A DNA stretch of 64,000 nucleotides, taken from the NCBI GenBank assembly GCA_043228905.1, contig JBHGNT010000006.1, positions 11,904,001 to 11,968,000 on the forward strand, in the 5' to 3' direction. Shown in pieces: positions 10,784-64,000 of the stretch (its first letter is position 1; every line of letters starts with the position of its first letter). The notes under the pieces were generated by a model. It was not told where the DNA came from and searched no databases. It worked only from the letters and a program-made list of their open reading frames with translations. The translations under genes and the position numbers were made by a program. This stretch comes from Azolla caroliniana (lineage: Eukaryota > Plantae > Polypodiophyta).

Positions 10784-11812
10784 TGTTGTCCGCCGGAATA
10801 GTAACCGACAGACAAAAGCGTAGGAATCAAAAATTATATAAGAGCATAACGCATGTAACGGTTCACGCAAGAAGCGTGAACGGCTAAATAGACCCTGCAT
10901 ATATAAAGAGCAGAAAACCTCTGATGGAGGTGCGTGTAATTTTGGGAATGTAAAGAAACGCTTGATAATAGAATTCTATCTTCTCTGATTTTCTGTGTAT
11001 AGCTACGCCTAATTCAGTGTGTGTGTCTTGAATACTTAAGCGTTTGAGTACGTAAGTATAACCCCTGATAGGGATTCGGTTGTAGCCGTCTCCCCTTATA
11101 CATTGATAGGTTACAGGGGTTCTTCCCTTACGCGTTGTCGTAGTGTATTTCGTACACTACGTGAAAAAGTAAAAATAATATAAACGATTTAATTACATAT
11201 AAATAAATAAAATAAGAATATCAAAATATTTATCACGTGCATAGGGCAGGATTCAAACCCTGTACCTCCACGTAGCCAAACCTCAACTTTACCATTATGC
11301 TACCTTATCTTTAGTGTTCTATAAATAGATTTAATAACTATAAGTGCTTTATTTGCGCCTACCTTTATTAAAAGGTAAATCGTGCATTTTTAGAGTGTGT
11401 GAATATTTTATAGAAAAAACGCAAGCAACTAAAAAGTGACTCGTGCACATCTAGCGTGTATGAGCACTATATTTAGCAAATAAAAGCAAGGATTAGAAAA
11501 GCATCACATGCACATTTAGTGTGCATGAACATATTAGAAAAAAAGCATGTAGCTATGCTTAGTCTCTCCCATCACTACATAAGGATGGGGAGCACAATGT
11601 AATAGGCGTGTGAAATATTTGGAAATTGGATATATTTCCGAAAACACCAACCGATTAATATAATCGTGGGATTCACGAGATTTTTATCTTATAACTCTTT
11701 ATACCTATTCTTTACTAGCCTTATTTGTATTTTTCTTTTCTCCTAGTCCAAAACCCCGGTGGTTCCCACCCGACTCACGCAAACGATCCGGAGCCGAAAG
11801 GCACGACACAGT

Positions 11813-11830
11813 TGGTGAACCCGACGTGAA
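11813..11830 (+). other. Primer-binding site complementary to the tRNA-Trp 3' end
   Basis: TGGTGAACCCGACGTGAA is the reverse complement of the plant cytosolic tRNA-Trp 3' end (...TTCACGTCGGGTTCACCA, recalled). An identical PBS lies at 24658-24675. Confidence 0.85.
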
Positions 11831-11846
11831 GGCGGGTGGCAAGGAG

Positions 11847-13826
11847 ATGGAGAATCAACAAGAGGCAATGAGCATAACGATGATGATGATGTTCGAGCGG
11901 ATGCTACAAGAACAACGAGTGATGTCGGAGATCACGGGGGCAGTAAAGCGGCTCGTACAACGAAACGGACAATTCAACGGAAACGATGTGTCACGCTATC
12001 TACGTGACTACAAGGCGGAGATGATACGATGTGGGATACCGGAAGGATTGCAAGTGACATCCTTCAATCGGGTGGCCACGGATGAGCTACAAGAGAGAAT
12101 CCACAAGATACGGCAACAAAATCCAACATGGGGGTCCTTCGAAGAAGCTTTACGAGAGGCATATGATTACAAGAGATCGAAGGGAAAAGATCGGCGAGAA
12201 TTCGACGAATGGGTGGCATCGGAGAAGACCCACCGAAGTGCAACACAAGCATTCCTAGAGTTCGAGCATCGTCTTGCTCAACTCTCGGAGCGGGAACAAC
12301 GATTGGTGGGAGAAGATAAAGTCCTAATGTTCGTAAAATCGATCGATCGAAAAGAAAGGATGGACATCGAGATCGAACTCGAAGACGATGAAGGTACGAA
12401 TGGTCTTACCGAAGATTGGGCCGAAGTCCAAAGGGTATGCCGGAGACATGATGAGAGGAAGATGAGAATCTTGTCAACGACATGGCCGATGAAGGATGGT
12501 CGATTGAAGACAAACGATGGAGCCGATATGAAGGCCGAAATACAACATGATGGTCCGACGGAAGAGGGTGTAAAACAAGCTACCCTCTTGTCTTGCGAAA
12601 GAACAACGACAAAGGATAAGGCCGATAACCCAAGTGTAGAAGAAGATTTCGGAATACAAGTGTCCGAAACATCGGGTGAAAAAGGGGTAAGCATAATTGA
12701 TGTTTGCATAATTGATGCAGTGAAAGAGAGCAAGGAGGACTTGATTGAGGAGGTCACCACGAAAGATGACATCGAATTGAAGGTGGCTATGGACGAATCA
12801 ACGACGGATGGCCATATCGAGACTTCCCCACCACTAATTCCAGAGACTCCGGCGGTTGCATTCGAAAGGCAACGTGAGACCGAAGAGACGGAAGGTGGCA
12901 GAGAGAAAACAAAGGTCGAAGTCGATGCATACGACGGAGAGATAGCCGAGAATATGGCTATGGGTGAAACAATGAAGGATGATAATACCGAGGATTCCTA
13001 CCCACTAATTCTAGAGACTTCGGCGGTTGTGTCCGAGAACCAACGTGAGACCGGAGAGACGGGAGGTGGCGGCAAGAAAGGTAAAGTCGGAAGCCAGTTA
13101 GGATGGAAGGTGATCCGGACGGGATTCCGATCCGAAAGAAAGCCGAACCGGGCGAATGAGGATTCGGCCAAAAGACGACCCAAAAGAAAGCCGACCCGAA
13201 AAGGGGTCGACTTGGTCAAAACCGATCGACCGAGTCTGACTTGGCTGAACGCGAATATGGATGGAAGCCGACCTAGCCGAAAGCCAATCGGACGAGATCG
13301 ATCCGGAAAGAAGCTAATCCGACTCAATCGAAGGTTGGACCGGTCGAGGCTGGTGAAAACGAGGAAAAAAAAGCCAACCGAAACCGAAACCGATAGATCG
13401 AAACCGGGCCGGAAGGAGACCAACTCAATCGAAACCAAACAACTGATTCCGATTCGGCCAAATATGAATCCGATCGGACGCCGATCAAACCAAAAGTCGA
13501 TCGGACGAGAGCGATCCGGAAAAAAGTCAAGGTTGATGAAGACAAGAAAGAGGCCAGTAAAAGACACTACCACGAATGATAAGGGCCAAGAATATGATGA
13601 GAGAGAACAAAGAATATGGTGGATCGGATGGCGACAATGGTTCGGGTGGAAAGAATGGGTCTATTCAAAATGGAGAGACAAAGTTGACATAGCGGGACAA
13701 ACGGAGGATGAAGGGGAGACAACGAGCATCGGCAACTTCGGCACATACCGGAGGATGTGCGGGTTCGGAGGGGGCGAGTGTCGTAGTGTATTTCATACAC
13801 TACGTGAAAAAGTAAAAATAATATAA
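11847..13826 (+). CDS. Gag-derived protein with long acidic then basic low-complexity extension
   Basis: Uninterrupted ORF. The N-terminal ~200 aa closely match Gag at 24693 (FNG.DVSRYLRDYKAEM.RCGI.EGLQVTSFNRVATD). The ORF runs into the 3' LTR. Confidence 0.75.
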   Translation: MENQQEAMSITMMMMFERMLQEQRVMSEITGAVKRLVQRNGQFNGNDVSRYLRDYKAEMIRCGIPEGLQVTSFNRVATDELQERIHKIRQQNPTWGSFEEALREAYDYKRSKGKDRREFDEWVASEKTHRSATQAFLEFEHRLAQLSEREQRLVGEDKVLMFVKSIDRKERMDIEIELEDDEGTNGLTEDWAEVQRVCRRHDERKMRILSTTWPMKDGRLKTNDGADMKAEIQHDGPTEEGVKQATLLSCERTTTKDKADNPSVEEDFGIQVSETSGEKGVSIIDVCIIDAVKESKEDLIEEVTTKDDIELKVAMDESTTDGHIETSPPLIPETPAVAFERQRETEETEGGREKTKVEVDAYDGEIAENMAMGETMKDDNTEDSYPLILETSAVVSENQRETGETGGGGKKGKVGSQLGWKVIRTGFRSERKPNRANEDSAKRRPKRKPTRKGVDLVKTDRPSLTWLNANMDGSRPSRKPIGRDRSGKKLIRLNRRLDRSRLVKTRKKKPTETETDRSKPGRKETNSIETKQLIPIRPNMNPIGRRSNQKSIGRERSGKKSRLMKTRKRPVKDTTTNDKGQEYDEREQRIWWIGWRQWFGWKEWVYSKWRDKVDIAGQTEDEGETTSIGNFGTYRRMCGFGGGECRSVFHTLREKVKII

Positions 13827-15603
13827 ACGATTTAATTACATATAAATAAATAAAATAAGAATATCAAAATATTTATCACGTGCATAGGGCAAGATTCGAA
13901 CCCTGTACCTCCACGTAGCCAAACCTCAACTTTACCATTATGCTACCTTATCTTTAGTGTTCTATAAATAGATTTAATAACTATAAGTGCTTTATTTGCG
14001 CCTACCTTTATTAAAAGGTAAATCGTGCATTTTTAGAGTGTGTGAATATTTTATAGAAAAAACGCAAGCAACTAAAAAGTGACTCGTGCACATCTAGCGT
14101 GTATGAGCACTATATTTAGCAAATAAAAGCAAGGATTAGAAAAGCATCACATGCACATTTAGTGTGCATGAACATATTAGAAAAAAAGCATGTAGCTATG
14201 CTTAGTCTCTCCCATCACTACATAAGGATGGGGAGCACAATGTAATAGGCGTGTGAAATATTTGGAAATTGGATATATTTCCGAAAACACCAACCGATTA
14301 ATATAATCGTGGGATTCACGAGATTTTTATCTTATAACTCTTTATACCTATTCTTTACTAGCCTTATTTGTATTTTTCTTTTCTCCTAGTCCAAAACCCC
14401 GGTGGTTCCCACCCGACTCACGCAAACGATCCGGAGCCGAAAGGCACGACAGCGTTACGCTTAAACACCTGTTCGTTGTTCCACACCCACTTTGAGGTCT
14501 AGGTCGAAGGATTGACCGCGGACCGTGTTCCTAAACGGTAACAGGTACGTTGACTCCGGCGCATCAAACCACATGACGAGCCATAAGGAGTGGTTCTCAT
14601 ACCTTGAGAAACCGATGCAACCGGGAGTAATCGCAATAGGAGACGACACTCCGCATCCAATCGAGAATGTCAGTGAAGTTCCCCTTAGCCATGTCAGGAA
14701 AAAAGGGAAACTCATGAACAAGCTACATGTCCCAACAATCACGAAGAATCTGGTGTCATTCGGGCAGATCGTCGACCAAGGGATGCAAGTCCGGTTCACG
14801 CATCTCGGATGCTTCATTGAGGAGGAAGGCCAAGTTATTGCGCAAGGGCGCAGAGACGGGAGGATGTTTATCCTCGACACCAATGACGTTGGCAGCGCAA
14901 TTGTTACGGGCATGACCATATAATATCCCGTGGTAAGAATTTACCGTAGTATTCTATACACGTGGATAAGTGTGAGGGTTAAATGAGAGTGTAAAGAAGG
15001 GGAGGATTACTTTTAATCCTCGGGATTGAGACAACCCATTAGGTCAAGTGTGAACTTGCCTGGGGGCCTTGGGTATCGCTATAAATAAGAGGCCTAGCTA
15101 CCCTCATTTGATCATCTTTTGACTACATCGAGACTCTGCTCGTGTGGTGGGTCAACTCTTGTAGCGAGCGCGCTAGCACCAGGTACGACTCGACGCCAAG
15201 GCGGTGGTATGGGACGCCGATCGAGGCTCGAGTCCGTCTCGATCCCTTCGCTCGGGGGTGGTCGGGTGGATCGGCACCCTTCTTTCTCTTTCTCCTTTCT
15301 ATCTTTCAATTCTTTATCCTTATCTTAAGCTTACATTAGTGCTATGATCTATAATATTTGGTATCAGATTTTTGTACTAATGTTTCTTTGTTTTTCATTT
15401 GTCTTTTGATTGATGCTGATCGATTGTTGTGCGGTTGGCCTTGATCCAGACAACGATCAACAAAGAACTTCGGTAACTCTTTCCATAATTTTTCTTTCTA
15501 TTCTCTCTTCTCCCATCTAATCATGTGTTTAGTTTATATGTAATTTTTTTCATTAAGTCAATGATGTTGTAGTGGTCTTTAATTGATTATCTAAAACGTT
15601 TAC

Positions 15604-15872
15604 ATATGTGCACGAGGTCAATACCTCGTTTGACATATTGATAATATGTGATGAGTGTCGTATGCGTACGAGGTTAATACCTCAATTACGTATTACGATC
15701 ACGAACATATGTTACGTTTGCGTATGAGTTTAATACCTTGATTTGTTGTAAACGATATGCGTTTGGTCTCGTATGCGTAAGAGGTCAATACCTCCATTGC
15801 GTATTACGATGATCTCTTATTTGTGGATGTTTCGTGTGCGTAGAGGTATATACCTCGATTACGTATCTCGAT
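15604..15872 (+). repeat. Array of five hairpin-forming repeats (period 55-62 bp)
   Basis: Core GAGGT-NNNN-ACCTC at 15614, 15670, 15726 (variant), 15781 and 15843, each inside an outer stem such as CGTATGCGTA...TACGTATTACG. Confidence 0.85.
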
Positions 15873-17044
15873 CATATCATTTGTGGCTATTTAATATAAC
15901 GATATGTTTAATATAGGCATATGTGGTCACATATATACGTATTTGATCGTATATATGTGATAAGTAAACATATGTGTATATTCGTTATTACGTGATTATA
16001 TCGAAAGTTGTCCTTGTCGGGAAAAGGATGTTGGTGGCCGTCCTCACATTCTTGTGAGAATGGCGTTGTCACCATCCCATTTTCAACAATTTTTTATTGT
16101 TGACAACCCCGTTGATGACCTCGATTTCGTTACGTAAAGAAACGCAATAGCCATAATGATGTTGAGTTCGTAGGGCTTGACCCACTTCAAGTGAGGTCGC
16201 TCCAATGACGCACGTATCCAACATCCCTCCCTCGTTACATGGATACGATGCCACCATGAGCTCGTTCTTACGAGAGGCATTCGTAATGACGTGACCATGT
16301 GATGGCCCACATGAGCCTACTACGAAACGAGGGCTCATTTGGCTTGACCATTAGGTTGCACTTTGGCGTATGCCATCGTAATTACGAGACTTGAGGTTAG
16401 GTAACGTACCAACATAGTTTTGGTAAATGAGGGCGAAATAAGGACCCTTGACATATATGTTCTTTTAAAAAAACGTATATGATCAATTGCCTCGCATATC
16501 TCTTATACGCATCAAACATTAAACATTCGAGAAGAGCAACTTACTTGGTTGGCTCAAGTGTTTAATGTATTTGTTCTCGAGGTCTCGAGTTCAAATATGA
16601 CAAAGACCATACAACATCCTTGATACATATGACTATAACACATGTTTAGACTTAAGGTCTAAGTGCACCTCGGGGTCCTCGTAATAGGACTTAAAGAGCC
16701 GAAACCACTTATGTGGGCACCGAAACATAGTTTATTGTTAACATTTTTTTTCGTGTATAAACTATTCATGACGCGAACATACATGGTTGAGCCTCGGGGA
16801 GCCACCATGAAAAAATCGATATAGAGATCAGGGAAAGACATTTATTTGTCACCCCCATGGTTTTTAAAACAACTTTGTGTTACCATAGTAACCTGATCTT
16901 GAACCTCATCTCATACGTCTAGAGGGGTATTGACGTGAGATAATGATATCGATTAATGCTCGCCCATGATATGTTTACATCACGACATGATGTTATGACT
17001 ATATCTCTGACCTTATCCTATTTCTTTTCCAGAAATAATCTTTA

Positions 17045-17902
17045 ATGGCTCAAATTAACGACCCGATGTCATCCGCTCAAGCGGAAGGAACTCAAGGGAA
17101 TCCTCCTGGACAAATGTCCACTGAGATGTATTTGGCACAAATAACCCAATACCTTAGTTTCACCGCTCAACAGATGACCGAACTTCGGCAATCTCAGAGT
17201 GCTCTTGAGGCACGTGTCATTAGTCTACAACGAGAGACTAATAGACCTGATGAGCGACAAGGTGAACCATCATTTGTCGTTAAGCCATTTACGGGAGACA
17301 AAAAGGAAAGAACCGAAGAAGCAATCTGCACATGGTTGGGACGATGGGAGTCTCATTTTGAGCTCTATCCCACGCCAGATAGTACGAAGATTGCATATGT
17401 CGGCCGAGAACTCGAGGGTAAGGCCGCCGCCTGGTGGCGTGGCCTCCGTACTATGGGGAAATTGCCCGATACCTGGACAGATTTTGTCACGGTTTTTAAG
17501 GGCCAATTTCTGCAACCTCCCTCTCGAACCGAGGCAGCACAAGCTTTAATGAACCTCTCTAGCAGGAAATTTTCCTCGCTAGAAGACTATGTTCACCATG
17601 CTAGAACCCAAATCCAAAAATCGGGTCTAGAAGGGGACAATTGGTTGATAGCTTGTTTTGTCAATGGCATCCCCAATTCGGACTATCACTGGATAGTGCA
17701 CGATAAGGATCCAAAATCCTTCGAAGAGGCCGTTGAAATAGTTCTTCGCTATCAACGCACTTCGAAGAAGGACCATAACAAACCCAACGAAGCGCCCGGG
17801 ACTAAGCAGTCGCAATTTGTTGGGAAACGCAAGACACCCAACGAATTCCTGGATCGCGATTGTAAGGTCATGATGCCATATGGGTTGTCGTTGATCGACT
17901 AA
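17045..17902 (+). CDS. Retrotransposon Gag (Ty3/gypsy capsid-like), C-terminus altered by a deletion junction
   Basis: ORF with KPFTGD, WLGRWE, LEGKAAAWW, TWTDFVTVFKGQF and FVNGI, a Retrotrans_gag-like pattern. Confidence 0.8.
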   Translation: MAQINDPMSSAQAEGTQGNPPGQMSTEMYLAQITQYLSFTAQQMTELRQSQSALEARVISLQRETNRPDERQGEPSFVVKPFTGDKKERTEEAICTWLGRWESHFELYPTPDSTKIAYVGRELEGKAAAWWRGLRTMGKLPDTWTDFVTVFKGQFLQPPSRTEAAQALMNLSSRKFSSLEDYVHHARTQIQKSGLEGDNWLIACFVNGIPNSDYHWIVHDKDPKSFEEAVEIVLRYQRTSKKDHNKPNEAPGTKQSQFVGKRKTPNEFLDRDCKVMMPYGLSLID

Positions 17903-18912
17903 CTAAAATGGCCAGATTTATTGCTACTAAAACCACGGTAACAGCTCCTGAATTGGCTTACCAATTTGTTGACGAATTGTTTCGTTTTTATGGGTTACCG
18001 ATGGATATCATGAGTGATCGAGATCCAAAGTTTACTAGTGACTTCTGGACACAAGTCTTTAAGAAGTTAGAAACTACGTTGAGCATGAGCTCCACGGATC
18101 ATCCTCAATCCGATGGACAGACAGAACGAGTAAATGAAATTATTGAGGACATGCTTCGAGCATACGTTGGTGCAAAACCAACAAAATGGGAACGTTATCT
18201 CCCAATTTTGGAGTTTGCTTATAACAGCTCCAAGCATACGTCGACGGGATATAGTCCTTTTATGTTGATGTATGGTTTTCAGCCACGAGCCCCGATTGAT
18301 GTTAATATACATCATGATGAGTTGCGAAGTACGCAAAACTTTCTTCGGGATATGCAAGATATGTTGCATATTGCACGAGATAATATAAAAACAGCTCAAG
18401 ATAGAGCGCGTTTTTATGCCGATCATCATAGGCAACCTCGTGTATTCAACCCTGGATAGAAGGTATTTTTACGTGTACCTCACAATTCTAAGACATTGTC
18501 TACGGGTAAGTGCGCTAAGTTAGCCCCACGGTTTTGTGGACCTTTTACAGTCCTCAAACGCATTGGGTCATCAGCCTATCGTCTCGCTCTTCCCGATGGT
18601 GTCGGAATTCATCCAGTCTTTCATGTGAGTCGTCTAAAAGAACTTCTAGGTTCTGGCGACAATACAGTTACGACTGAAACTCTGGTTACTTCTGAAGAAT
18701 TATCTTCTAAACCACATGTGCCAGAAAGAATTCTCGATGTTAAAACAAAAAAATTACGTACTAAAGAAATCCGAGAATTCAAAATAAAATGGATGGATAA
18801 ATCAATAAAAGATGCCACATGGGAACGCGAAAATACTCTTAGAACTAACTTCCCTAACTTTCCATTGCAAGAGTGCAATGTTTTAAAGAGGGGGAGTATG
18901 TTACGGGCATGA
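17866..18912 (+). pseudogene. N-terminally truncated integrase with GPF motif and chromodomain
   Basis: GHDAIWVVVDRLTKMARF, SDRDPKF, HPQSDGQTER, PRFCGPF, HPVFHVSRLK, KIKW...DATWERE. The zinc finger and the first catalytic Asp are missing; one internal stop at about 18457. Confidence 0.85.
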
Positions 18913-21900
18913 CCATATAATATCCCGTGGTAAGAATTTACCGTAGTATTCTATACACGTGGATAAGTGTGAGGGTTAAATGAGAGTGTAAAGAAGGGGA
19001 GGATTACTTTTAATCCTCGGGATTGAGACAACCCATTAGGTCAAGTGTGAACTTGCCTGGGGGCCTTGGGTATCGCTATAAATAAGAGGCCTAGCTACCC
19101 TCATTTGATCATCTTTTGACTACATCGAGACTCTGCTCGTGTGGTGGGTCAACTCTTGTAGCGAGCGCGCTAGCACCAGGTACGACTCGACGCCACGGCG
19201 GTGGTATGGGACGCCGATCGAGGCTCGAGTCCGTCTCGATCCCTTCGCTCGGGGGTGGTCGGGTGGATCGGCACCCTTCTTTCTCTTTCTCCTTTCTATC
19301 TTTCAATTCTTTATCCTTATCTTAAGCTTACATTAGTGCTATGATCTATAATAGCAATGTTCACAAAACGACAAAAGGTCGAGCCGGATATCGACTTGTG
19401 GCAGAAGCCGATAGGCCACATCAACTATCAAAGGCTTCAGGACTTACAATCGAAACAAGTTGTGTTCGGATTGCCCAAATTTAGTGGCCGGAAGGCCCAA
19501 ATTTGTGAAGCCTGCCAGCTAGGGAAGCCACACCGATTTCCCTTCCCCAACGAGTGTAACCGGGGCCAGAATAAGCTCAACTTGATACATTCGGATGTAT
19601 GGGGGGCGGCACAAAATGTTCGTCTTGGTGGGAGTCGATATTTTGTCTTCTTCATCGACGACTACACGCGGCACACGTAGATCTATCTCATTGAAAAGAA
19701 GAGTGAAGTCTTCGACTGTTTCCGGGACCTCAAAAGCTTTGTAGAAAGGGAAATAGGGAGAAAGATCAAGTGCCTACGGTCGGATGGCGGAAAAGAGCAC
19801 TTTTCCGGCCAATTCAACAATTATTTGCAACAAATGGGAATTCGGCGCGAATCCAATTGCAGGTATAAGCCAGAGCAAAATGGTGTAGACGATAGGAAAA
19901 ATCGGTCAATTGTGGAAGAGGCGCAGGCAATGCTGGAAGAAAAGAGCTTGTCCAAGTTCTATTAGGCCGAAGCGGTACGAACTGCGGTCTACATCCAGAA
20001 TCGGATCGAAGACAAAGTGTCGGCGCATGAGCTGTATTTCGAAAGAAAGCTGAATCTACGACACTTGAGAGTTTTCGCGTGAGCCACAATGTTGTGTTTG
20101 ACAAGTCCGCGTCGTGGTACTTGCCTCAGACTCCGAACCTCAACTCCAACTCCGGACCTCCAGAACCGAGTTCTGACAATGAGGTCAGCGAGGCTGAAAT
20201 GCCTCCGAATGACCGCAAAATCGAGACCCTCGATGAGAGCCCAATTTTATTTCGGCTCAGTGGACCGAACGAGCGGCTGAGTTGGTTTGACCAGTCCGAA
20301 GAAGAGCTAGCGAGTAGTGGAGACTCAACCGTGCATTCCCCACACAGGAAGTTGAGAGACGGTTTACGTGCAAGGAAAAAGGGAAGAAGAAGATGCCGGA
20401 GTACGGCATGGATAAGGACGAGTCAGATTGACGCGAATCCGACTCCGATAAGAGCGATGACGGGCCTTCGAGAGCGAAGTTCGCGTCGGCCAAGAAAGCC
20501 TCCACATCGGCTTATGAGCAATTATGCTGATCTACCCGGCAGAAGAACCCTGTGATGCGGTTCGGTTACAACGAGTACATGGCACATCACTATGTGTACA
20601 TGATGTGTGTAGCGGAAGTGCGTGAGCCGAAGAGGTACGCAGAAGCGGTGAAGGCCGCAAATTGGCATGCCGCGATGGAGGAAGAGATGCGCACATTGGT
20701 GAAGAATGAAACTTGGGACCTGGTTGTCGCACCGAAGGGTGTGAATCTGATTAGATGTAGGTGGGTGTACAAGGTCAAGTACAACACCGACGGCTCGGTC
20801 AACTGATACAAGGCCCAGTTAGTAGCGAAAGGCTACGCGCAACAACATGACATCGACTGCGATGAGATGTTTGCGCCGGTCGCCAAGATGACGGCCGTCC
20901 GTGTTTTGCTTGCAGTAGCTGCGGCAAAGGGGTGGCATTTACATCAAATGGATGTCAAGAATGCGTTCCTACAAGGCGAGCTTCAGGAACATGTGTACAT
21001 GGTACAACCCCCCGGATTTCACTCCGGAATGAACACCTCAACGGTCTGCCGGTTGAAGAAGTCCCTTTACGGACTAAAGCAAGCCCTGCATGCTTGGAAC
21101 GCGAAAATCACGCAGCGATTGCGTCGGATGGGATTTGCGACGTCCAAATCGGACTCTTCACTGCTCATTCGGCAAGGTCGACTCAGGCCGGTTAGTATTT
21201 TACTTTATGTTGATGACTTGGTCATCACCAGCGCCGACCTAGGTGAAATTGACCGCGTAAAGCTCCAGCTCACGGCATCATTTGACATGAAGGACCTGGG
21301 GGACCTTCATTACTTCCTCGGGATCGAAGTGATCCGTACCAATGAAGGCATACTGATTAGCCAACAACATTACATGTTGTGTATGCTCTTCAAGTTCGGG
21401 ATGGCAAATTGTAAGTCCGTCTCAACTCCTCTGGATAGAACCGTTAAGCTTCGCCCCAACTCCGGAAAGGTTTGCGACCCGAAGAGGTTCCAACAGATTG
21501 TCAGAAGCCTCATATACTTGACTATCACTCGACTAGACTTCAGTTACCCGGTCGGTGTGATTAGTCAATTCATGGCGTAGCGAACCGAGGAGCACCTTCA
21601 GTGTGCACAACGCGTACTCCAGTACATCAGTGGCACTAAGGACCGGGGGCAACTATATCGTACCAGTACTACCGCTCAGTTAGTCGGCTACACCGACGCT
21701 GATTGGGCCGAAAACGTCGGCGATCGCCGATCCACATCCGGATTCGCATTCTCTCTTGGGAGCGCCGTGATCGCGTGGAGCAGCAAGAAGCAGCCGACAG
21801 TTGCATTGTCCAACACCGAAGCTGAGTATAGAGGAGCGTTTGTTGCTACATGCGAAGCCATCTGGCTAAAACGGCTACTTAAGGATCTATAGGTGGAGGT

Positions 21901-23195
21901 GTCCGATCCGACAACGATCTACTGCGACAACCTCAGCAGCATCCAGTTAGCGAAGACCCCTGTCTTCCACGCCCGGACTAAGCACATTTAGGTGCACTAC
22001 CACTTTGTCCGCGAGCTTGTCCTCTCTAGTGATGTCGAACTTCAGTATGTTCTGACGGATCGGTAGACCGCCGACAGTTTCCCCAAGCCCCTTGGTCTCG
22101 ACAAATTGCGGCAATTCTTGGGTGCGCTTGGGCTGCGTCACCTCGATGTGCCGAACTTGAGGGGAAGAGAAGTCCTGGAAGACCACGAAAGGGAGCAAGA
22201 AAGGAGTGGAAGCCACCGTGACACCAAGTCGGATGACGAATTCGATTTCGGGACGACTGAAAAAGCCTAGGGCGGATCCGCGAAAGAGTCTGAAAGCGGA
22301 CATGAGGGAAGTAGCCGAAAGAAAGAGCTGAAGCCAGCCAAGCATGGGGGAGATGAAGCCAACTCGAACGAGAGCGAAAACCGATCGGAGGAAGCTGATT
22401 CGGTTCAGATGTTTGATTCGGAGACGCCGAATCAACCGAGGGCCAAGCAGAAGAAAGGGCAGCGGAAGAGGCGCCAACACCGCGACAACAAGGGAGTTGA
22501 GAAGGGCCGCACGAGCACATACGCCGACCGGAAGGGTCGAGGCGCGCAGAATCGAACAGGGCGAGGAGCGCGAGCGAGGCATGGAGCCAGAAGAAACCAG
22601 AGTAGTGACCTAGAAGAACCAGAAGGGCCTCAAGTTGAGCTTGAGGGGGAGTGTTGAGATACAAGCTCAACATTAGCTGGATCGGCTGTACAAGCCGAGA
22701 ACCGGATCGGTTGGAACCGATCGGTTAGGCCGCACCGGTGCGTAAACCGGTGCGCAATCCAGTGCGCAACAAGAAGTCGTAGCGGTGCGTAAACCGTGAG
22801 GCCATCGGAAAGATATTCCGCATAGGAATATATTTTGGGAGTTAGAATAGAGCTCATTTATGAGCATTGAAGTATGTGTCAGTACTTCTGTCAGTTTGTA
22901 TGGACTTGTATAAAAGTGCTCACTGAGCACATCCTATGTACAGACTAAGTATTAGTTTTTTAATAGAGGTGTGTGTACTCTCTCTCTCGTACTATGTGTG
23001 TCCAAGCTCTCCATTAAATCTGTGTTTTCCTAGGTTCTGGTTTCTGTTGCTTCCGTACGTTGTTCTTTTCATAATTTTACTACATATGAAACGGATAACT
23101 AAGTATCAAGCTATGTGACTATGAAGTTTGAGAAGATGAGGAAAACAAAACTGTGAGCTATCCCACATAGGTATCTAACAACATCCGATCCAACA

Positions 23196-23945
23196 TTATA
23201 TAAGCAGAGCCAAAACACATTACTTCATATTTTTGTGTTTGGAGCACTGGATGACGAAGGTGATTTGGGCTGAATTGTGTGGATGATTTGCTTGGAGTTC
23301 ATTTTGGGTCGCGGCCTGATTTGCCACGGCGCACAACACGGTTCGGTGGAGGCGTGCACGGCTCGGTCGGGACATGCGTGCGTGCGTGTTCGGTCGCGAT
23401 TCACGTACGGATTACGCACAGGCCGAACTTTATGGATGATTGGATCATATGGCCGAATATAGGGACATCGCACGCAACTAAAACTGGACACATGCAACTA
23501 AAAGTAGAGGCCATGCAACCAAAAGTAGATGCATGCAACTAAAGTAAAGTTCATGTGTGGACGCATGTAACTGAACATCAAGGGCCATGATCAACGAAGG
23601 ACTCCTTATATATTCCACTCGTTTTTCTCTCCATTTTTTTTGGCTTCTCTTCTCTCGATTCTTTGGGGAAAACAATCTCTCATATTCATATCGAACCACT
23701 CCTTATCTGGTGGCTGAATCCTTTCTTTTAAAATTATCTCTCATTTTCATATCCAATCCATTCTAACACGATTCTTATATTATAAAAGAATCTATTATTT
23801 TGATATAAACAAATGTTTTCTTTCACCTATATGTCTTATGTGTAAATCTTGCTTGTGTTGTACAAGTGAGCCCTAAATCCTTCCAGTCCATAACCCCGAC
23901 GGTTCCGCCTCACAATCCACACATAGTGATGGATTTTTTACGACA
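23196..23945 (+). mobile_element. 3' part of an LTR related to the solo LTR 25969-27300
   Basis: Shares CAACTAAAAGTAGAGGCCATGCAAC and ATGATCAA...ACTCC motifs with 26800-26860 and ends ...TTTTTACGACA at 23945. Confidence 0.65.
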
Positions 23946-25968
23946 ACGCTGTCGTAGTGTATTCCACACACTACGTGAAAACCATACAATAATATATCCG
24001 ATTTTAGATACATATAAATAAATAAATAATATATCAAAATATTTATCACGTGCATAGGGCAAGATTCCAACCCTGCACCTCCACATAGATAAACCCCAAC
24101 TTTACCATTGTAATAACTTATCTTTAGTGTTATACATATAGATTTAATACATATAAGACCTTTATTTACACATACCTTTATTAAAAGGTAAAAACCATGT
24201 ATTCTTTAGGGTGTGAATATTTTATTTACACGTGACATTAAAAGTGACTCATGCACATCTAGAGTGCATGAGCCCTATACTTAGGAAATGACAAAGCATC
24301 ACATGCACATTTAGTGTGCATGGACACTTTTGGTGAAAAAGCATGAAGCCATGCTTAGCCTCTTCCATCTTTATATAAGGAGGAGAGAAATATGTATAAG
24401 GTTGTTGATTAATATACAAGGATTGATCAATCTAATATATTCGTGGGATTCACGAATTTTGCCATCTAAATTACTCTTATAATCTAAATATTGTTTTAAA
24501 TACACTAAACTCGTGGGATTCACGAGATTGCTATCTTACTTCTCTTTATACTATTCATAACTAGCCTTAAGTTGTATTTCTCATCCTCCTAGTCCAAAAC
24601 CTCGGCGGTTCCCATCCGACTCACGCAACGATCCGGAGCCGAAAGGCACGACACAGTTGGTGAACCCGACGTGAAAACCGGGTGGCAAGGAGATGGAAAA
24701 TCAACCGGAGGCTAGCAACATGATGATGATGTTCGAGCGCATGCTACAAGAACAACGCGCGATGTCGGAGATAGCGGCATCAGTGGAGTGGCTCGTGCAA
24801 CGAAACGGGAAATTCAACGGGAAAGACGTGTCGCGGTATCTTCGGGACTACAAGGCGGAGATGCTACGGTGCGGAATATCGGAAGGACTGCAAGTGACGT
24901 CCTTCAACCGGGTGGCGACCGACGGGCTTCAAGCAAGCATCCATGGGCTACAACAGCAAAATCCGACATGGGAGGCGTTTGAAGAAGAGCTAAAGAGGAT
25001 GTTCGCCATCGAGGATTCCTCCAAGGCGACGCGAAGGGGATTCGAAGATTGGGTGGAGACGCCGGACAAGGGATTGAAGGTCGTTGATGTGTTTTCGGCA
25101 TTCGAAAGCCGGTTCGGGAGGTTGTCCGCGAGAGATCAAGCTATCCTCGTACCGGACAAGGTGATCATGTTCTTGCGAGCCGTGGACGTCCGGGACCGGA
25201 AAGATCTCGGAGTGCTCTTGGAGGACATGACCACGGAGAGTGGCCTCACCGAAACATGGGAAAGCATGCGGGATATCGTCGCGCGATACACGAAGAGGGG
25301 GCAATGGCTTGCCAACGAGGAAAAGAGGGTTTCGGAACCGATTCCGAAACCGAGAACCGGATTGGAAGACCATCAACCGAGGGCTCGGGAGACTACAACC
25401 GAGAAGGGGATTGATGCATCTACGGTGGAGCAACTATTGAAGGAGATGGAGAATCTGAAGATCACGATGGTGAAGAAGTCGGATGACCGCCCCATAAGCT
25501 CCAAGTATACGGACCGACGGTGCATATGGTGCGATAGCGCCGAACACGATCGGAGGGATTGCGACGAGCATAAGGAGGCGCTACGGCGGGATCTCATCTA
25601 CTACGAGGGAAACCGGATTCATTCGATGGACTCTCAGAAGCCACTCCGACCGAACTTCCGGAAAGGCGGCATGAAGAAGGTGCTCGAGGAGGAATTGGCG
25701 GCAAGAAGCAACTATGCGACAACCGCGGGAATATGTGTCGAGGAGTCATCGAGCGCAAAGACGTCTTTTTGGCCGGAAGTTCTAGAAAACACCGAGAAAA
25801 CCGACTCCAACGAGATCCGAAGCACCGCGGAAGGCGTCCGGGAAGCTACGGGATGGGAGTGCCCTGTCGACAAGAATAGCGTATACGCCCTATGTCAATT
25901 GCATGAGGTGTATGTGGACGAGAAACGACGACGCATGGAGGATGCGGCCGAGCCATCGAAGATACCGG

Positions 25969-27300
25969 TGTCGTGTGAATCTTCACACACTGTAAAAAAA
26001 TAATGAAATAATTATTATAGATTAGATTAGTAGCTTACTATAGAAAGATGGATATACTCAAGAGCTTGAAAATGTATTTTACTATATACAAAATGGAGAA
26101 ATACATATCAAGTTATGAGAAAATGAAGTTTGATTAGATAGAGAAATTAGAATTATCCCACATAGATAGGAAAGTTAAGGCCCTGGCTATATAAACACCT
26201 TGAGCTCCCTCATTTTTCATTTGTGCTAAGAGCACTTTGGCCACTTTGTCTTGATGGATGATGGTGGCCAAAGTCCCTAAAACCGGAAACCGGCCGGTAA
26301 GCAAATCCGGATAACGGGTCCGGTAAGCAAATCTAGAAATTGGCCGGTATGCAATCTGGAAACCGCTCGGTATGCAAAACCGGAACCGGCCGGCAAGCAA
26401 AACCGGAACTGGAACGGGTATGCAAACCGGAAACCGGTTGGTAAGCAAAACCAGAACTGGCCGGCAAGCAAAATCGGAAACGGGCCGGTAAGCAAAACCT
26501 GAACCCGCCGGCAAGCAAAACCGGAAACCGGCCGGTAAGCAAAACTGGAACCAAAACCGGCAAGCAAATCGGAACCGGCCGGCAAGCAAAATCGGAACCG
26601 GAACCGACCAGCAAGCAAAATGGAACCGGCTACCAGACGAGTTTGGACGCGGACGGACGAAAGATTGGATCATGCAACAAACTAAAGTAAAGTGAAGAGA
26701 ACTAAAGTAAAGGCCATGTGGACGCAAGCAACTAAAGAAGGAGTGCATGGAAAAAGTAAAGGTCATGTGAACAGTCACATGCAACAAAAAGAAAAAGCTA
26801 GGCAACTAAAAGTAGAGGCCATGCAACAAAAAGTGGAAAGGCTATGATCAAGGGAGAACTCCATATTTATTCCATTTTTTTTCCTACACTAGGACTTACT
26901 CTCCATATTATCTTAATTTTCTTCTCAACTCCCTTATCTTAGGGAGCCATAACTCTCATAAACCCTAAAATTCCTTACGGGAGCCATAACACTCAAAAAC
27001 CCTAATCTTCCCTACGGAAGCCATAATACTCATATAACCTAATCCTAATCTTCCCTACGGAAGCCATATCTACCAAAACCCCTAATTTTTCTTTTCTATT
27101 AATCTTAGTAAACCTAAAACTTCTAAATCCCAATCTTGGGACATATTGTAATTTCTTTTTCCTTTGTTAATGAAAATTATTAAATTTCTTCTTTCTGTTA
27201 TTTGTTAAAAAATATAAATGTACGAATGTGATTATCCTCTTGTCGGAGGCCCTGGGGTCTTGCCTCAACGTTCACGTATCCTCGTCGTATTTTCGCGACA
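25969..27300 (+). mobile_element. Solo LTR (1332 bp) with 4-bp TSD CCGG
   Basis: TGTCGTGTG...TTCGCGACA flanked by CCGG at 25965-25968 and 27301-27304. Removing it restores the gag reading frame. TATA-like CTATATAAA at about 26188. Confidence 0.92.
26279..26635 (+). repeat. Tandem ~24-bp repeat array (AAAACCGGAAACCGGCCGGTAAGC-like) inside the solo LTR; a second ~38-bp array lies at about 26942-27085
   Basis: Directly visible degenerate tandem units; the second array unit is GGGAGCCATAAC...AAACCCTAA...CCTAC. Confidence 0.85.
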
Positions 27301-30300: not shown

Positions 30301-32330
30301 GGTATACCACTTCGAGTAGTCGAGACAAAAGAGCAACGAAACCGGATAATGTCCGAGTTTCACGAATCCGATTGGGCTGGACACCGAGGAACATGGGCAA
30401 CATTTGTGAAGATCAAGCAAAAATATTGGTGGAAGAAAATGTACAAAGATGTCGCGGAGTTCACGGAAAGCTGCGAGAAATGTCAAGTCTACTCCGAGGT
30501 TCGACATCGAGATGAGTTACATCCGACATTCTCACCGACAATCAACTTCAAGTGGATGGTCGACATAGTGGCCATGCCGACCGGGATCGGACAAAAGAAA
30601 TACTTGGTATTAGCTCGGGAAGATCTCACAAATCAAGTAGAAGGTCGAGCGCTTCAGAGGAAAACGTGTTCCGCGGTATGCCAATTTCTTTTGGAGGAAG
30701 TATTTTGCAGGTACGGGTGCGTAGGACAAGTGATTGCGGACCGGGGAGAACTCGACTCGGACAAAGCTAGGGGATTCTTCGCCAAACACGGAGTTCGGTT
30801 ATCGTTGACAACGGCATACAATCCGGAGGCCAACGGGAAAATCGAACGAGGACATAGTCCGATCGTGGAAGCACTAGCGAAGGCATGCGATGGAAAGGTG
30901 AAGGACTGGTCGTAGATGCTTCCGTATGCACTATGGGCAGATCGGACGACCCATAGCTCCGTAACCGGTTACATGCCGGCAGAACTCATGACCGGACAAG
31001 CACTGGTAATGCCGACGGAAACCGCGATCGCAACATGGACAGTGCTACCATGGAAGGAAGAGATGAGCCAGGAAGAACTATTAGCGGTCCGGATACGACA
31101 ACTAGAGGGAAGACCGGCAGACATAGCGGAAGCAATACGCCGACAACAAGAAGCACGATTCCGAAACAAAAGCCGGTTCGACACAAAGCACCGACCACGA
31201 CCGAGGAGGATTGAAGAAGGAGATTGGGTGATCGTCTATGACAGTAGTTTGGACCATCAACATACAACGATGCGGAAATTCACGAAAAGGTGGTTCGGGC
31301 CATACGAGGTTCAGAAAGTCTTCGACAACAGAACATACCGACTGTCCGAGTTGGATGGAACAATACTACGAGTGCCTATAGCCGGGAAGCGGGTGAAGAT
31401 TTTCAAGAAGCGGACCGACGACAAACCCTATGTGATCCAAGACAAGGCCGACAACGAGGAGCAATCGGAAGAGGACCACGGTGATGCGGGAAGCGAAGAA
31501 AGTGAATTACAACTCATAGTCGACATAAGGGGAGAATCAGAGGAAGCTTTGGGTGAAGACGGATATGAGGAATCGAGAACTTCGGCACATACCAGAGGAT
31601 GTGCGGGTTCGGAGGGGGCGAGTGTCGTAGTGTATTCCACACACTATGTGAAAACCATAAAATAATATATCCGATTTTAGATACATATAAATAAATAAAT
31701 AATATATCAAAATATTTATCACATGCATAGGGCAAGATTCAAACCCTGCACCTCCACATAGATAAACCTCAACTTTACCATTGTAATAACTTATCTTTAG
31801 TGTTATACATGTAGATTTAATACGTATAAGACCTTTATTTACACATACCTTTATTAAAAGGTAAAAATCATGTATTCTTTAGGGTGTGAATATTTTATTT
31901 ACACGTGACATTAAAAGTGACTCATGCACATCTAGAGTGCATGAGCCCTATACTTAGGAAATGACAAAGCATCACATGCACATTTAGTGTGCATGGACAC
32001 TTTTGGTGAAAAAGCATGAAGCCATGCTTAGCCTCTTCCATCTTTATATAAGGAGGAGAGAAATATGTATAAGGTTGTTGATTAATATACAAGGATTGAT
32101 CAATCTAATATATTCGTGGGATTCACGAATTTTGCCATCTAAATTACTCTTATAATCTAAATATTGTTTTAAATACACTAAACTCGTGGGATTCACGAGA
32201 TTGCTATCTTACTTCTCTTTATGCTATTCATAACTAGCCTTAAGTTGTATTCCTCTTCCTCCTAGTCCAAAACCTCGGCGGTTCCCACCCGACTCACGCA
32301 ATGATCCGGAGCCGAAAGGCACGACAACGT

Positions 32331-34871: not shown

Positions 34872-34873
<2 letters not shown>

Positions 34874-41126: not shown

Positions 41127-41175
<49 letters not shown>

Positions 41176-45470: not shown

Positions 45471-45805
45471 AAAACTCCGAAGCTTGAAGGTCGAGCCCCA
45501 TTATGTTGACCACACCACCTTTGCGACCACATTGTTGCTAATGTCACCATTTGTTGCCACCTACTGTTGAGATCATCAATGAAAAGTGGCAATGAAGCCG
45601 TCTTAGTTGCCACATCATCATGCAACACACAAAAAATTGTTACTTTGTGAGAAATTCCATTTCAAAAACTCTAGACTTGTCACACAATGATATGTCTAGT
45701 TCTATTGTAGTGAAATATTCATCACACAAGAACGAGGAGTTTACAATTTGAACAATATAGAGGATTAAAAATTAAATAGATAGATAAAACTTTAGATGAG
45801 ACCAC

Positions 45806-45842
<37 letters not shown>

Positions 45843-45845
<3 letters not shown>

Positions 45846-48017: not shown

Positions 48018-48056
<39 letters not shown>

Positions 48057-48060
<4 letters not shown>

Positions 48061-48690: not shown

Positions 48691-48699
48691 TCTTTTGGA

Positions 48700-51101: not shown

Positions 51102-51133
<32 letters not shown>

Positions 51134-60499: not shown

Positions 60500-62906
60500 C
60501 ACGTCACACCGGGTAGAGACTTCGACTGTCGGCATCAACAGCCAACGTAAGACCAAGATATTGACGTTGGCGGCAGGAGAACGAGACCCGGCAATGCAGA
60601 GAGTTACGGACGGGCACGGACGAGAACCGGGCGGAGTGGACAAGAACCGGGAGGAAGAGGCAGGCCTATGGGGAGGCCGGAACACGGTACATCGGTACCA
60701 CGAGAGAGGGTGCGGAGCGAGCCACCCTCTCGACATGCGAAGAAGGACAACCCGAGACAGGGTCGCGAAGGACGAGGGGCCCAAGAAGGATCCTTCACAC
60801 CGGGCTAAAGACTTCGACGGTCCGCATCGGATCCGACATAAGACCAAGATACTGATGGTGGCAGCGAGGGGACGAGGGCAACAACGACGACGACAACCGA
60901 AGACGAGCGGGGTCCTACAAGAGGACCGAAAGAACAGACAAGAGGTATAAAGCCGGCAACGTGGCCACAGACCGGAACCGGACCCGATCTACAGGGTCAG
61001 TAGGACGAAGACCGGACACGCTTGGTGAACGAGTCGGTGGCCTAACAGATCGGAGGCCCAAGAAGGATCCTTCACATTGGATCTAGAGACTTCGGCGGTT
61101 GGCATTGGATCCGACGTAAGACCAAGAGACTAACGGTGGTGGCGAGGGGATGAAGACAGTAGCAGTAGAGGCACTGAGCGGCCAAGGCGTCGAAGGACTA
61201 CAGAGGCCAGGCAAGCCAAAACAGGCAAGGGTGATCCTTCGTGGGTAGCAACACAGAAAGCTACCAAGGACACCCAAGCGGGGAACGGTGTGTCGAGTCG
61301 AAAAGGGGACACCCGGAAGTGTATCAGAAGATGTGCGTGTGGCCATCGAGGGCCGAAGTAAAGCACGGGTATGGGACAGTGTTCGACACAAGTGGTGCCA
61401 AGCAAGGAAGGTGGAAGACGGCACACAATGGTGTCGGGTTGGAAATCGGGCGCAGGATAGGCTACACACGTCGGTAGCTAGAAACGGTATCGGTGACCGA
61501 AGGAGGGTTCTCCACACCCACTTCGGAGATCTCGACGGCTCAGTCGGAGTGGCAACGACTCGCGTGGCAAGCCAAGCCCGAGATAACAAACTGGTGGGGG
61601 CGAGGGGACGACGACAAGTGTATGGCGTCGAACCAGTTGCAGTAGCGCGGAACGAAAGGGGCCAAGTAGGGCGACACGGGGTGTTCTTCGAACGTGAAGG
61701 ATACCAGTATGTGGAGAAACAATGGGCGACGACGCTGGACCCAACCAATGCGACGCGGAGGCCAAGCAGGCCACTACGGGATGTTCCTCGGACGCAGAGG
61801 AAACCGGGTATACGGGAAGCGAGGATCGTGCATACGGTCGATCAAGGGCCATGGGACGAGCACGCGTATTACAGGTTGATCAAGCCTATGGAGAGGCGAG
61901 CGCGAGGATGGAACCGGAGCTGACGGTTTGGATCGGCAGAGGCCAACACATTAGCCGGGATGCAGATTACAGAAGGCCGATTGCTCACTACGGCCAGAAT
62001 CTCTCACCCTTCTTCAGATTTGGCACGTATCGGTGGACATGCGGTTTGGTGAGGGCGGATGTCGTGAAGATTCGCGACCATAGTGGGAAAACCGGGCCTA
62101 TTGGGAATATGGGCAAGGTGCGGCGTGAGCACTTACCCTTGTATACTCGTGTAAGATAATGGGGGGTGCCTCTATGGCGCCGAATAGGAGTTAAGTTGGG
62201 ACAGAGAATCCCATGTAATAAGGGATTAATCCCACATTGTAACATCCCTCCCTCCTTGGGCTATAAAAGGAAGGGAGGGTCCCTTACAAAAGAGATGCCC
62301 ATTTTGAGTTAGGAGGGTATACCACGTAGATCTAAAGTATGGTAACTTTCTCTTCTTTCTTTCTTACTTTCTTTAGGGTTTGATCTAGGTCTTCTCCTTC
62401 ATCATCATGTGGGTTGAGTCTTCATGTCTGTTTAGGGTTTAGTCTGGTTTAGAGCTCATATGTCCTAGGGGGGTTTTGCTTTCGCTCTGTCTCCTGTGCA
62501 AGACCCTGCTCGGCGCGACTAGCCCGTGAGCTCCCCGATCGGTGGCTTGGCAGCAGAACGTTGTTGTAACCTAATCTACCTTGGTCCAGCTCAAGGCCGA
62601 AGTTGTATCTTGCTCTTGTGTATATATATAGTGAAGTTATGTGCATCTGTGTCTGTGTTGGTGTCTTTGGAGTTCCTTCTTTCTGGTCTCTGAACATAGG
62701 ATGTGTGTGTCTAGTCAATGTTCGTGCGCATCATTTCCCCTCTCTCATTCAGTTGCTCTCGGTACGTATCAGGAAACACTTTGGTTGGTGTCCTGGCCGA
62801 TCACCAGGAATGGTGAAGCTCGACCTTCCATGCTCCGTCTTTCTCAGGTCCAAGACCCCTGTGGTCTCGCCCCGGATCTAACACGCACGCGTGGATTTCC
62901 GCGACA
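60500..62906 (+). mobile_element. 3' portion of a TGTCG...CGACA-lineage gypsy element: repeat-rich internal region and 3' LTR at 62060-62906
   Basis: The pre-LTR sequence TTTGGCACGTATCGGTGGACATGCGGTTTGGTGAGGGCGGA-TGTCG is homologous to 13737-13783. TATA CTATAAAAGG at about 62261; LTR ends TTCCGCGACA. The 5' boundary is unclear. Confidence 0.7.
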
Positions 62907-64000
62907 CTGGCATTTGAAGGTGTTCGGGTGTCTTGCATACATGCATGTGGCAAAGGACAAGAGAGAAAAGTTGGATTCGAAGTCCCGACCATGCATATTC
63001 CTTGGATACGGCAATGATGAGTTCGGTTACCGGGTGTGGGATCTGATCGACAAGAAGGTGTTCCTGAGTCGGGACATAGTCTTCATGGAAGACAGGACCA
63101 TTGTCGGCTGGGAGTCGGACAAGAAGATGATCAACTCTGGATCATCCAATGAAAACCGGCCTGAGGACACAAGGACCTACCTAGTTGAGAACCGGATGTT
63201 AGCTGGTAACCGGATGACACTCGACGAACCAGCCGGATATGGATAGGAAACCGAACCGACCGAAGGAGAAGAAGAAGAAGGCATCGAAACCGGACAAGAT
63301 CCCAAATCGGATTCGGAACAAACGGAGGAACCAGTGATCAGAAACCAAGGACGGAGATATCCTCTCCGAGAGAGAAGAGCCCCCCGGAGATTTCTGGATG
63401 AAGAGGACATGTTGCTAACCGATGAGGGGGAGCCGGAAAGCTTCGAAGAAGCAAAGAGAGACACCCACAGCCGCAAGTGGTTGAGTGCCATTCGGATGAG
63501 ATGGATTCCCTGCATGAGAACCACACATATGAACTGACAGAGTTGCCGAAAGGGAAGAGAGGACTTCGGAACAAGTGGGTCTACAAGCTGAAACAAGGAG
63601 ATGCTAGAAATCCACCAAGGTAAAAGGCTTGAATCGTGGTGAAGGGCTTCCAGCATAAGAAAGGAGTGGACTTCGATGAGATCTTTTCCCCGGTAGTAAA
63701 GATGACATCCATCCGTATGGTATTTGGGCATAGCGGCAAGCATGGACCTTGAGGTAGAGCAACTGGACGTCAAGACGGCATTCCTACATGGCAACCTCGA
63801 AGAAGAGATCCACATGCATCAACCGGAAGGATTTGAGAAGAAAGGGAAGAAGCACCTGGTGTGCCAGCTGAAGAAGAGCTTAAGCAAGCTCCCGAACAAT
63901 GGTACTGGAAGTTCAACTCCTTCATGACCGACCAAGGGTACCACAAGATGCAGACCGATCACTATGTGTTTGTGAAGAAATTTGACGGAGGACATTTCTT
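62907..64000 (+). mobile_element. Degenerate Ty1/copia (Tnt1/Tork-like) integrase C-terminus and RT
   Basis: HLKVFGCLAY, KLDSKSRPCIFLGY, SRDIVF, GEPESFEEA, EQLDVKTAFLHG; runs off the window. Confidence 0.9.

What the first reader, a model, noticed from the sequence alone, without database searches (positions are those of the whole stretch)
11132..62910. A gypsy lineage that appears to integrate specifically at CpG-centred 4-bp targets
Seen: every readable insertion of the TGTCG...CGACA lineage has a 4-bp duplication with CG in the middle: GCGT (11132/14452), ACGC/ACGT (23946/32327) and CCGG (25965/27301). The LTR ending at 23945 is also followed by ACGC, so the 23950 element sits in what may be the same 4-bp target. 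The LTR ending at 62906 is followed by CTGG. In the host copia frame this reads W-HLKVFG where an Arg codon is plausible, so the site may be CCGG deaminated at CpG (inference). Known: most plant LTR elements make 5-bp TSDs with weak sequence preference, as the chromovirus copies here do (GCAAT, AATTG). Inference: this chromodomain-less integrase may recognise CpG or methyl-CpG, which would steer insertions into methylated TE DNA. All of the sites here are inside other TEs.
Basis: partly seen in the sequence, partly recalled or inferred. Interest (0 to 1): 0.8.

Follow-up and report, generated by a model that had tools for sequence, protein, structure and literature searches.

The report
Fern Phygy-type retrotransposon inserting at CG
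These jumping genes, in what is likely a fern genome, insert almost only at four-base sites with CG in the middle; the same preference was published in 2019 for the moss Phygy lineage, to which they likely belong, and whether methylation of the CG matters is untested.

Summary
Three two-sided insertions have 4-bp, CG-centred duplications (GCGT/GCGT, CCGG/CCGG, ACGC/ACGT), and 5 bp fits none. A scan of metagenome contigs for the LTR end gave 38 independent flanks: 33 are NCGN (background 4.3%, P about 4e-40), and the other 5 are NTGN or NCAN. Sequencing runs of four coded organisms agree.

The pattern is already known. Neumann et al. 2019 (PMC6317226) list Phygy, a moss non-chromovirus gypsy lineage, with a 4-bp NCGN duplication, a tRNA-Trp primer and no extra domain. 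Element B matches on duplication and domains; the Trp primer is recalled, and no tree against REXdb could be built.

Methyl-CpG steering has no support here. The integrase has no methyl-reader or chromodomain. Flanks are not CG-dense, and 83% of the window's CGs lie in TE stretches anyway.

Most likely the integrase itself reads the central CG step of a bent 4-bp target. New here: a likely fern host and the refined motif VCGB (ACGT in 14 of 33).

The parts
11136..14451 (+). Element A: young non-autonomous Phygy-type element (gag-like ORF only). LTRs 11136-11808 and 13779-14451, 673 bp, 3 mismatches
   Evidence: no Pfam family in its ORF
11132..11135 (.). Left target duplication of A, GCGT
14452..14455 (.). 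Right target duplication of A, GCGT
11813..11830 (+). Primer-binding site of A, 4 nt after the LTR end; tRNA-Trp identity recalled, not tool-confirmed
   Evidence: searches did not confirm the tRNA
13767..13778 (+). Polypurine tract of A, identical to that of B
23950..32326 (+). Element B: decayed autonomous-type gypsy, 8377 bp (7041 bp without nested C). LTRs 23950-24653 and 31623-32326, 704 bp, 13 mismatches
23946..23949 (.). Left target copy of B, ACGC, directly after the end of LTR D
32327..32330 (.). Right target copy of B, ACGT; the C/T difference sits in a CHG context, so deamination is a likely cause (inference)
24658..24675 (+). Primer-binding site of B, same core as in A
24693..27573 (+). 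gag region of B, interrupted by solo LTR C; weak DUF4100 hit after the insertion
27910..31620 (+). pol of B: RT, RNase H, integrase (H2C2, rve, SH3/GPY-F, acidic tail), broken by two in-frame stops; no chromodomain, MBD or archaeal RNase H detected
31611..31622 (+). Polypurine tract of B
25969..27300 (+). Solo LTR C (1332 bp, separate family) in the gag of B; duplication CCGG at 25965-25968 and 27301-27304
23072..23945 (+). LTR D remnant (patchily related to C); 5' end replaced by a copia LTR, left duplication unreadable; similar LTR ends are joined to the same PBS in sequencing runs
   Evidence: (table 5c)
62060..62906 (+). LTR E: 3' LTR with TGTCG...CGACA ends, followed by CTGG inside a copia integrase frame; assigned to the lineage by its termini only
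14902..19353 (+). Control: chromodomain-bearing gypsy with a 5-bp GCAAT/GCAAT duplication
33430..33884 (-). Control: solo LTR related to the chromovirus LTR, flanks AATTG/AGTTG

Best explanation
These Ty3/gypsy elements make a 4-bp duplication centred on CG, are likely fern members of the Phygy lineage, and their integrase likely picks the CG itself by reading the bases at the sharply bent centre of the target, with no need for methylation. Shown: the 4-bp stagger, the CG centre, avoidance of T at the first and A at the last position (VCGB, modal ACGT), and an integrase with only HHCC, DDE core, SH3 and an acidic tail. Inferred from foamy-virus intasome work: a 4-bp stagger forces unstacking at the central step and favours pyrimidine-purine steps, and T at the joining position is disfavoured. 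Inferred here: because TA is never used and CA/TG rarely, bendability alone is not enough, so base-specific contacts from the core or the SH3 loop likely choose CG. The few TG/CA centres are likely later deamination of methylated CG. Insertions land in other TEs because most CGs are there.
For: 33 of 38 flanks are NCGN against 4.3% background. Against a null of any YR step P = 1.5e-20, with 0 of 38 TA. Position 1 is never T, and position 4 is A in 1 of 38, the general pattern of 4-bp intasomes (PMC4422553 passages). REXdb lists Phygy as 4 bp (100%) NCGN, tRNA-Trp 81%, no extra domain. No chromo or MBD family was found in B's pol pieces or in five long homologues at E up to 1. The integrase alignment ends after the SH3 domain in a variable acidic tail, which is low-confidence in the model (pLDDT < 50 for 456-500). 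Best structural matches are PFV and Ty3 integrases. Flank CG density equals that of random positions, and 7 of 37 flanks are CG-poor. RT relatives at 65-73% identity carry Riccia, Calypogeia and Adiantum names, and Phygy is reported in a liverwort.
Against: No tree with REXdb Phygy sequences: the FASTA supplement was too large to read, and none of my homologue searches returned a Physcomitrium-named protein. The Trp primer was not confirmed by tools. B without its nested LTR is 7041 bp, below the moss range of 7656-9968. Of 3 two-sided sites in the fetched loci only 1 is a perfect pair (L002, a 71-bp remnant that may be an assembly collapse); L029 is ACAC/CCAC and L024 is CTGT/ACGT. No residue that reads CG was identified. 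CG methylation is widespread in a model fern, so the sequence cannot separate CG from methyl-CG.
Confidence: 0.7

Rival explanations
1. The integrase prefers 5-methyl-CpG, through the extra methyl in the major groove or easier bending, and so is biased to silenced DNA.
For: All 5 non-CG centres are TG or CA (P = 6e-5), and TpG carries a methyl where methyl-CpG does (established chemistry). L029 has CA on both sides. At least 23 of 38 flanks match window repeats within 1.5 kb. A 1992 paper on CpG methylation and retroviral integration in vitro exists (title only, in the reference list).
Against: Later deamination explains TG/CA equally well: B's own LTR pair has 4 CpG-type changes over 15-17 CG sites. 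No reader domain was found. Flanks are not CG-dense: median 0.040 against 0.060 expected for CG-picked sites in this window (P = 0.003), although assemblies favour low-copy flanks and the null comes from one window.
Confidence: 0.2
2. A host methyl-DNA or chromatin reader tethers the integration complex to heterochromatin, and the CG centre is a secondary local preference.
For: Tethering is how other elements target (established knowledge: LEDGF, BET proteins, TFIIIB). Phygy and Selgy domains are enriched at a liverwort's centromeres. The integrase has an acidic disordered tail.
Against: A tether sets the region, not a fixed base register: CG is at offset 2 in 33 of 38 flanks and at 0-4 of 38 at the other eleven offsets. 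The tail is not conserved.
Confidence: 0.07
3. Chance, or a misplaced LTR boundary in which the CG belongs to the element.
For: Only three two-sided sites in the window, one imperfect; the 38 outside flanks are one-sided, and 2 of 3 two-sided outside sites mismatch.
Against: 5' LTRs continue with CAGT/CAAG and the PBS, not NCG (11 of 52 loci). The base between the LTR end and the CG varies. The host frame at site C proves a 4-bp duplication. P about 4e-40.
Confidence: 0.02

Closest known systems
Phygy lineage, Ty3/gypsy non-chromovirus (Neumann et al. 2019, PMC6317226; passages, and Additional files 2 and 5 read; files 1 and 3 not readable)
   Same: 4-bp NCGN duplication, no extra domain, short element mostly filled by gag-pol, PBS likely for tRNA-Trp.
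   Different: Defined as specific to Physcomitrella; here in a likely fern. B is 7.0 kb without its nested LTR against 7.7-10.0 kb. The VCGB/ACGT refinement is not in the text I read.
4-bp TSD class in nested plant LTR elements (Jedlicka et al. 2019, PMC6911290; passages)
   Same: 4-bp TSDs with GC-rich centre and AT-rich edges; Phygy mostly 4 bp; Phygy often nested in other elements.
   Different: Pooled over families; no mechanism tested in the passages read.
TatI and Selgy (same REXdb table)
   Same: 4-bp TSD; TatI also uses tRNA-Trp.
   Different: TatI carries an archaeal RNase H, not found here; Selgy uses tRNA-Ala and is 4.4-6.7 kb; neither has a sequence preference listed.
Prototype foamy virus intasome (PMC4422553; abstract and passages)
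   Same: 4-bp stagger, central YR step, T disfavoured at the joining position; best sequence and structure match among integrases, with Ty3.
   Different: PFV preference is weak and accepts any YR step; here 87% of sites are CG and none TA.
Drosophila errantiviruses of the ZAM subgroup (PMC5408687; passages)
   Same: Sequence-specific palindromic 4-bp targets, including CGCG, in a species that has lost DNA methylation (PMC6673714 text).
   Different: Other lineage, AGT termini, and the central step of CGCG is GC.
CopiaMBD of arthropods (PMC6673714; abstract)
   Same: The published case of a retrotransposon binding methylated CpG DNA.
   Different: Uses a captured MBD domain and gives a regional bias; no such domain here.

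Membership tests
Phygy | 4-bp target duplication | tested here: met
   5 bp fits none of 3 window sites and none of 3 outside two-sided sites
Phygy | NCGN target preference | tested here: met
   33 of 38 flanks; 3 of 3 two-sided window sites
Phygy | tRNA-Trp primer-binding site | tested here: inconclusive
   A conserved TGG-initial PBS is present. Its match to plant tRNA-Trp is recalled; 0 of 31 viral loci with the motif held a tRNA and no paper held the string
Phygy | Gypsy order PROT-RT-RH-INT with no chromodomain, aRH or extra ORF | tested here: met
   for RT-RH-INT and absent extra domains; protease hit only in longer homologues
Phygy | Size 7.7-10.0 kb | tested here: inconclusive
   7041 bp without nested C, but B is decayed and may carry deletions
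Phygy | RT/RH/INT phylogeny within the Phygy clade | not testable with these tools
   REXdb FASTA too large; no moss-named homologue returned. B's RT is 24% identical to the window's Athila-like RT and its integrase 25% to the chromovirus integrase
Chromovirus (Tcn1, Tekay, Reina, Galadriel, CRM) | Chromodomain after the integrase; mostly 5-bp TSD | tested here: not met
   the control ORF at 18460-18909 does hit Chromo
TatI | Archaeal RNase H (PF13456) | tested here: not met
   No hit in B's pol pieces or 4 of 5 long homologues; one sub-threshold hit overlapping the normal RNase H in P0154
Selgy | tRNA-Ala PBS, 4.4-6.7 kb, no sequence preference | tested here: not met
   Strong NCGN preference and size above the range; PBS identity itself only recalled
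Ylt1-like fungal gypsy | RT/INT phylogeny with Ylt1 | not testable with these tools
   No named Ylt1 sequence obtained; papers read gave no Ylt1 target sequence
CopiaMBD-type methyl-CpG targeting | Element-encoded MBD domain | tested here: not met

The most novel reading that the evidence does not exclude
The Phygy integrase reads 5-methyl-CpG directly at the bent centre of its target, with no reader domain, so the catalytic complex itself senses DNA methylation and keeps a lineage spanning liverworts, mosses and ferns inside silenced DNA.
Probability: 0.15. Interest if true: 0.65.

Novelty: new member of a known kind. Interest (0 to 1): 0.2.

Why it matters
The headline (a plant gypsy lineage with CG-centred 4-bp targets) has been in print since 2019, so a specialist would not be surprised. 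What is added is modest: a likely fern host, where my searches found no report (2 papers hold both 'Phygy' and 'fern'; I read passages of one and saw only the listing of the other), a sharper motif (VCGB, modal ACGT), and intact natural integrase homologues. Neumann et al. call Phygy the only exception to variable TSD sequences among the plant lineages they surveyed, and I found no mechanism for it in the library. It is therefore a usable model for how an integrase reads bases, and the CG versus methyl-CG question is directly testable.

Tried and rejected
No own genome is held, so the genome-wide count used metagenome contigs and sequencing runs instead.

I first read 23061 as the start of LTR D with an ACGT duplication. 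Rejected: that stretch is the natural end of the copia LTR, seen in L001, L002 and L029.

A fixed 4-nt gap between LTR and PBS as a lineage trait: weakened, because D-like ends show gaps of 1 or 8 nt (table 5c).

Viral contigs held no LTR end and no pol relative (0 of 65 candidates). Genome contigs gave 2 short loci without usable ends.

Confirming the primer tRNA failed. Naming a moss homologue failed (Atlas one search gave only generic pol clusters).

Laying runs on a 1-kb stretch did not show terminal flanks, because only 24 of 872 loose ends were printed.

Back-to-back stacking as a rule: 0 of 38 flanks start a new TGTCG LTR after the 4 bp.

LTR E's internal region matched none of 354 fetched proteins.

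The structure model did not identify a CG-reading residue. Earlier scan notes held nothing on this finding. GingerRoot (passages) and two Ylt1 papers (passages) were not informative.
Full report
What is in the window. The window is a nest of plant retrotransposons (1-34.6 kb and 60.3-64 kb) around a gene-bearing stretch with PPR-like and proline-rich kinase-like ORFs (read by eye). No own genome is held. Five LTR units with TGTCG or CGACA ends are involved: A (11136-14451, non-autonomous, LTRs 3 mismatches in 673), B (23950-32326, gag-pol, LTRs 13 mismatches in 704), C (solo, 25969-27300), D (remnant ending 23945) and E (3' LTR, 62060-62906). A and B share LTR, PBS and PPT. C and D are patchily related. 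E is linked only by its termini.

Checking the observation. The duplications are GCGT/GCGT, CCGG/CCGG and ACGC/ACGT, and 5-bp readings match 1, 2 and 1 of 5. At C the intact homologue P0329 shows that exactly 4 bp were duplicated. D's left end is lost to a copia LTR and E's left end is missing, so those sites are one-sided. Arg precedes His in both homologous copia frames found, which fits CCGG before decay but does not show it. The controls are GCAAT/GCAAT and AATTG/AGTTG.

Outside test. An exact scan of metagenome contigs for the 24-base A/B LTR end gave 52 loci. I set aside 11 that continue into the PBS (5' LTRs) and 3 duplicates, leaving 38 unique flanks. Of these 33 are NCGN, 3 NTGN and 2 NCAN. 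Background CG in the same flanks is 0.043 (P about 4e-40). Against a null of any pyrimidine-purine step P is 1.5e-20, with no TA. Position 1 is A 24, C 7, G 7, T 0; position 4 is A 1, C 9, G 7, T 21. ACGT makes up 14 of 33 against 5.5% of background NCGN. Limits: the flanks are one-sided, the exact-match scan favours young copies, the contigs carry neighbouring accession numbers and may be one study, and they need not be the window's species. Three loci show both sides: L002 ACGT/ACGT (71-bp remnant), L029 ACAC/CCAC and L024 CTGT/ACGT, so only one is a perfect pair. In contigs of four runs from four coded organisms (3 studies), loose ends after the LTR end pile up behind ACG (15, 16, 22, 15 contigs) and ACGT (26, 21, 30, 16). 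The only row shown for a break inside ACG has 6 contigs. Only 24 of 94 rows were printed.

What it is. Neumann et al. 2019 (PMC6317226, passages) write that Phygy elements have an insertion preference for NCGN, the one exception among the lineages they surveyed. Their Additional file 5, read whole, gives Phygy as 186 elements, 4 bp (100%) NCGN, 8628 bp (7656-9968), tRNA-Trp 81%, no extra domain. B agrees on duplication length, motif and domain content. Its PBS is conserved, and I recall it as complementary to plant tRNA-Trp, but no call confirmed that. A weak DUF4100 hit lies in gag; I recall that family as described from Physcomitrella. The phylogenetic test could not be run, because Additional files 1 and 3 were too large; these files may also already contain the VCGB detail. 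RT relatives at 65-73% identity carry liverwort and fern names, and Phygy is reported in the liverwort Apopellia (PMC12885004 passages). Jedlicka et al. (PMC6911290 passages) report GC-centred, AT-edged 4-bp TSDs and Phygy nested in Tcn1. I put membership in Phygy at about 0.85.

How it likely works. The integrase has HHCC, DDE core, SH3 and a variable acidic tail. The model of homologue P0121 (mean pLDDT 79.6, tail below 50) matches PFV and Ty3 integrases best (sequence search). For 4-bp retroviral intasomes the central step is unstacked, YR is favoured, and T and A are disfavoured at the first and last positions (PMC4422553 abstract and passages). That accounts for the V and B of VCGB. The near-exclusive CG needs more than bendability, so direct base contacts by the integrase are inferred; I did not identify the residues. 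The TG/CA cases fit later deamination at about the rate seen between B's LTRs (4 CpG-type changes over 15-17 CG sites).

Methylation. Nothing here requires it. There is no reader domain, unlike CopiaMBD (PMC6673714 abstract). The TE-dense stretches hold 2169 of the window's 2598 CGs, so 4 of 4 sites in TEs has probability 0.49. Flank CG density (37 of 38 flanks long enough; median 0.040) is like random positions (P = 0.46) and below CG-picked positions (0.060, P = 0.003), with 7 CG-poor flanks; the null is one window and assemblies favour unique flanks. At least 23 of 38 flanks match window repeats within 1.5 kb. Drosophila ZAM-group elements pick CGCG although the fly has lost DNA methylation. 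Against dismissing the idea: CG methylation runs through most features of the Ceratopteris genome (PMC9477723 passages), so most targets are probably methylated, and TG/CA as the only alternatives also fits a methyl-reading model.

Novelty. 'NCGN' with 'retrotransposon' is held by 2 papers, one relevant. 'Phygy' with 'fern' is held by 2: PMC13469084 (passages, no fern report) and PMC13477047 (listing only). A search for Phygy with methylation, insertion preference and CpG listed 20 of 68 papers, none containing 'Phygy'. The library lacks most subscription journals. Verdict: real, well supported, already described for the lineage; a new member in a likely fern, with an untested methylation twist. 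Interest 0.2.

Noticed in passing
window 23072-32330: B sits directly against the end of LTR D with one 4-mer between them (D|ACGC|B|ACGT), as if it used D's own duplication as its target. None of 38 outside flanks shows such stacking.
   Followed up: partly
window 11809-11812, 24654-24657, 13775-13778, 31619-31622: In A and B the PBS lies 4 nt from the LTR end and the purine tract is followed by CGAG before TG; D-like ends show gaps of 1 or 8 nt in run contigs. This may mean end processing longer than the usual 2 nt.
   Followed up: partly
window 11136-14451; L024 629-3531: A is a very young gag-only non-autonomous family with an open 647-codon frame, sharing only the first 340 and last 51 internal bases with B; a second copy lies in L024.
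   Followed up: partly
window 14902-19353: Both LTRs of the young chromovirus end in ...ATA rather than CA, yet it has a perfect 5-bp duplication.
   Followed up: no
window 6033-14467: Athila-like non-chromovirus element whose integrase is cut off at its 3' LTR (10784); element A appears to sit near the end of that LTR.
   Followed up: no
L027 flank; L022 flank: A/B-family copies inserted into a D-family LTR (at GCGG) and into their own family's integrase gene (at ACGT).
   Followed up: no
L053, L054, protein P0110: Phygy-like pol on short contigs of bacterial genome records (a cyanobacterial assembly, Streptomyces, Kitasatospora), likely plant contamination.
   Followed up: no
window 1-34600 versus 34600-60300: CpG observed/expected is 1.06 in the TE nest and 0.46 in the gene-bearing stretch.
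   Followed up: no
window 36081-38244 (-), 40537-41259 (-), 45796-46973 (+), 50524-52647 (+), 55279-58425 (-): By eye: a hAT-like transposase, LINE fragments, a proline-rich receptor-like kinase and a 1048-aa PPR protein (not scanned).
   Followed up: no
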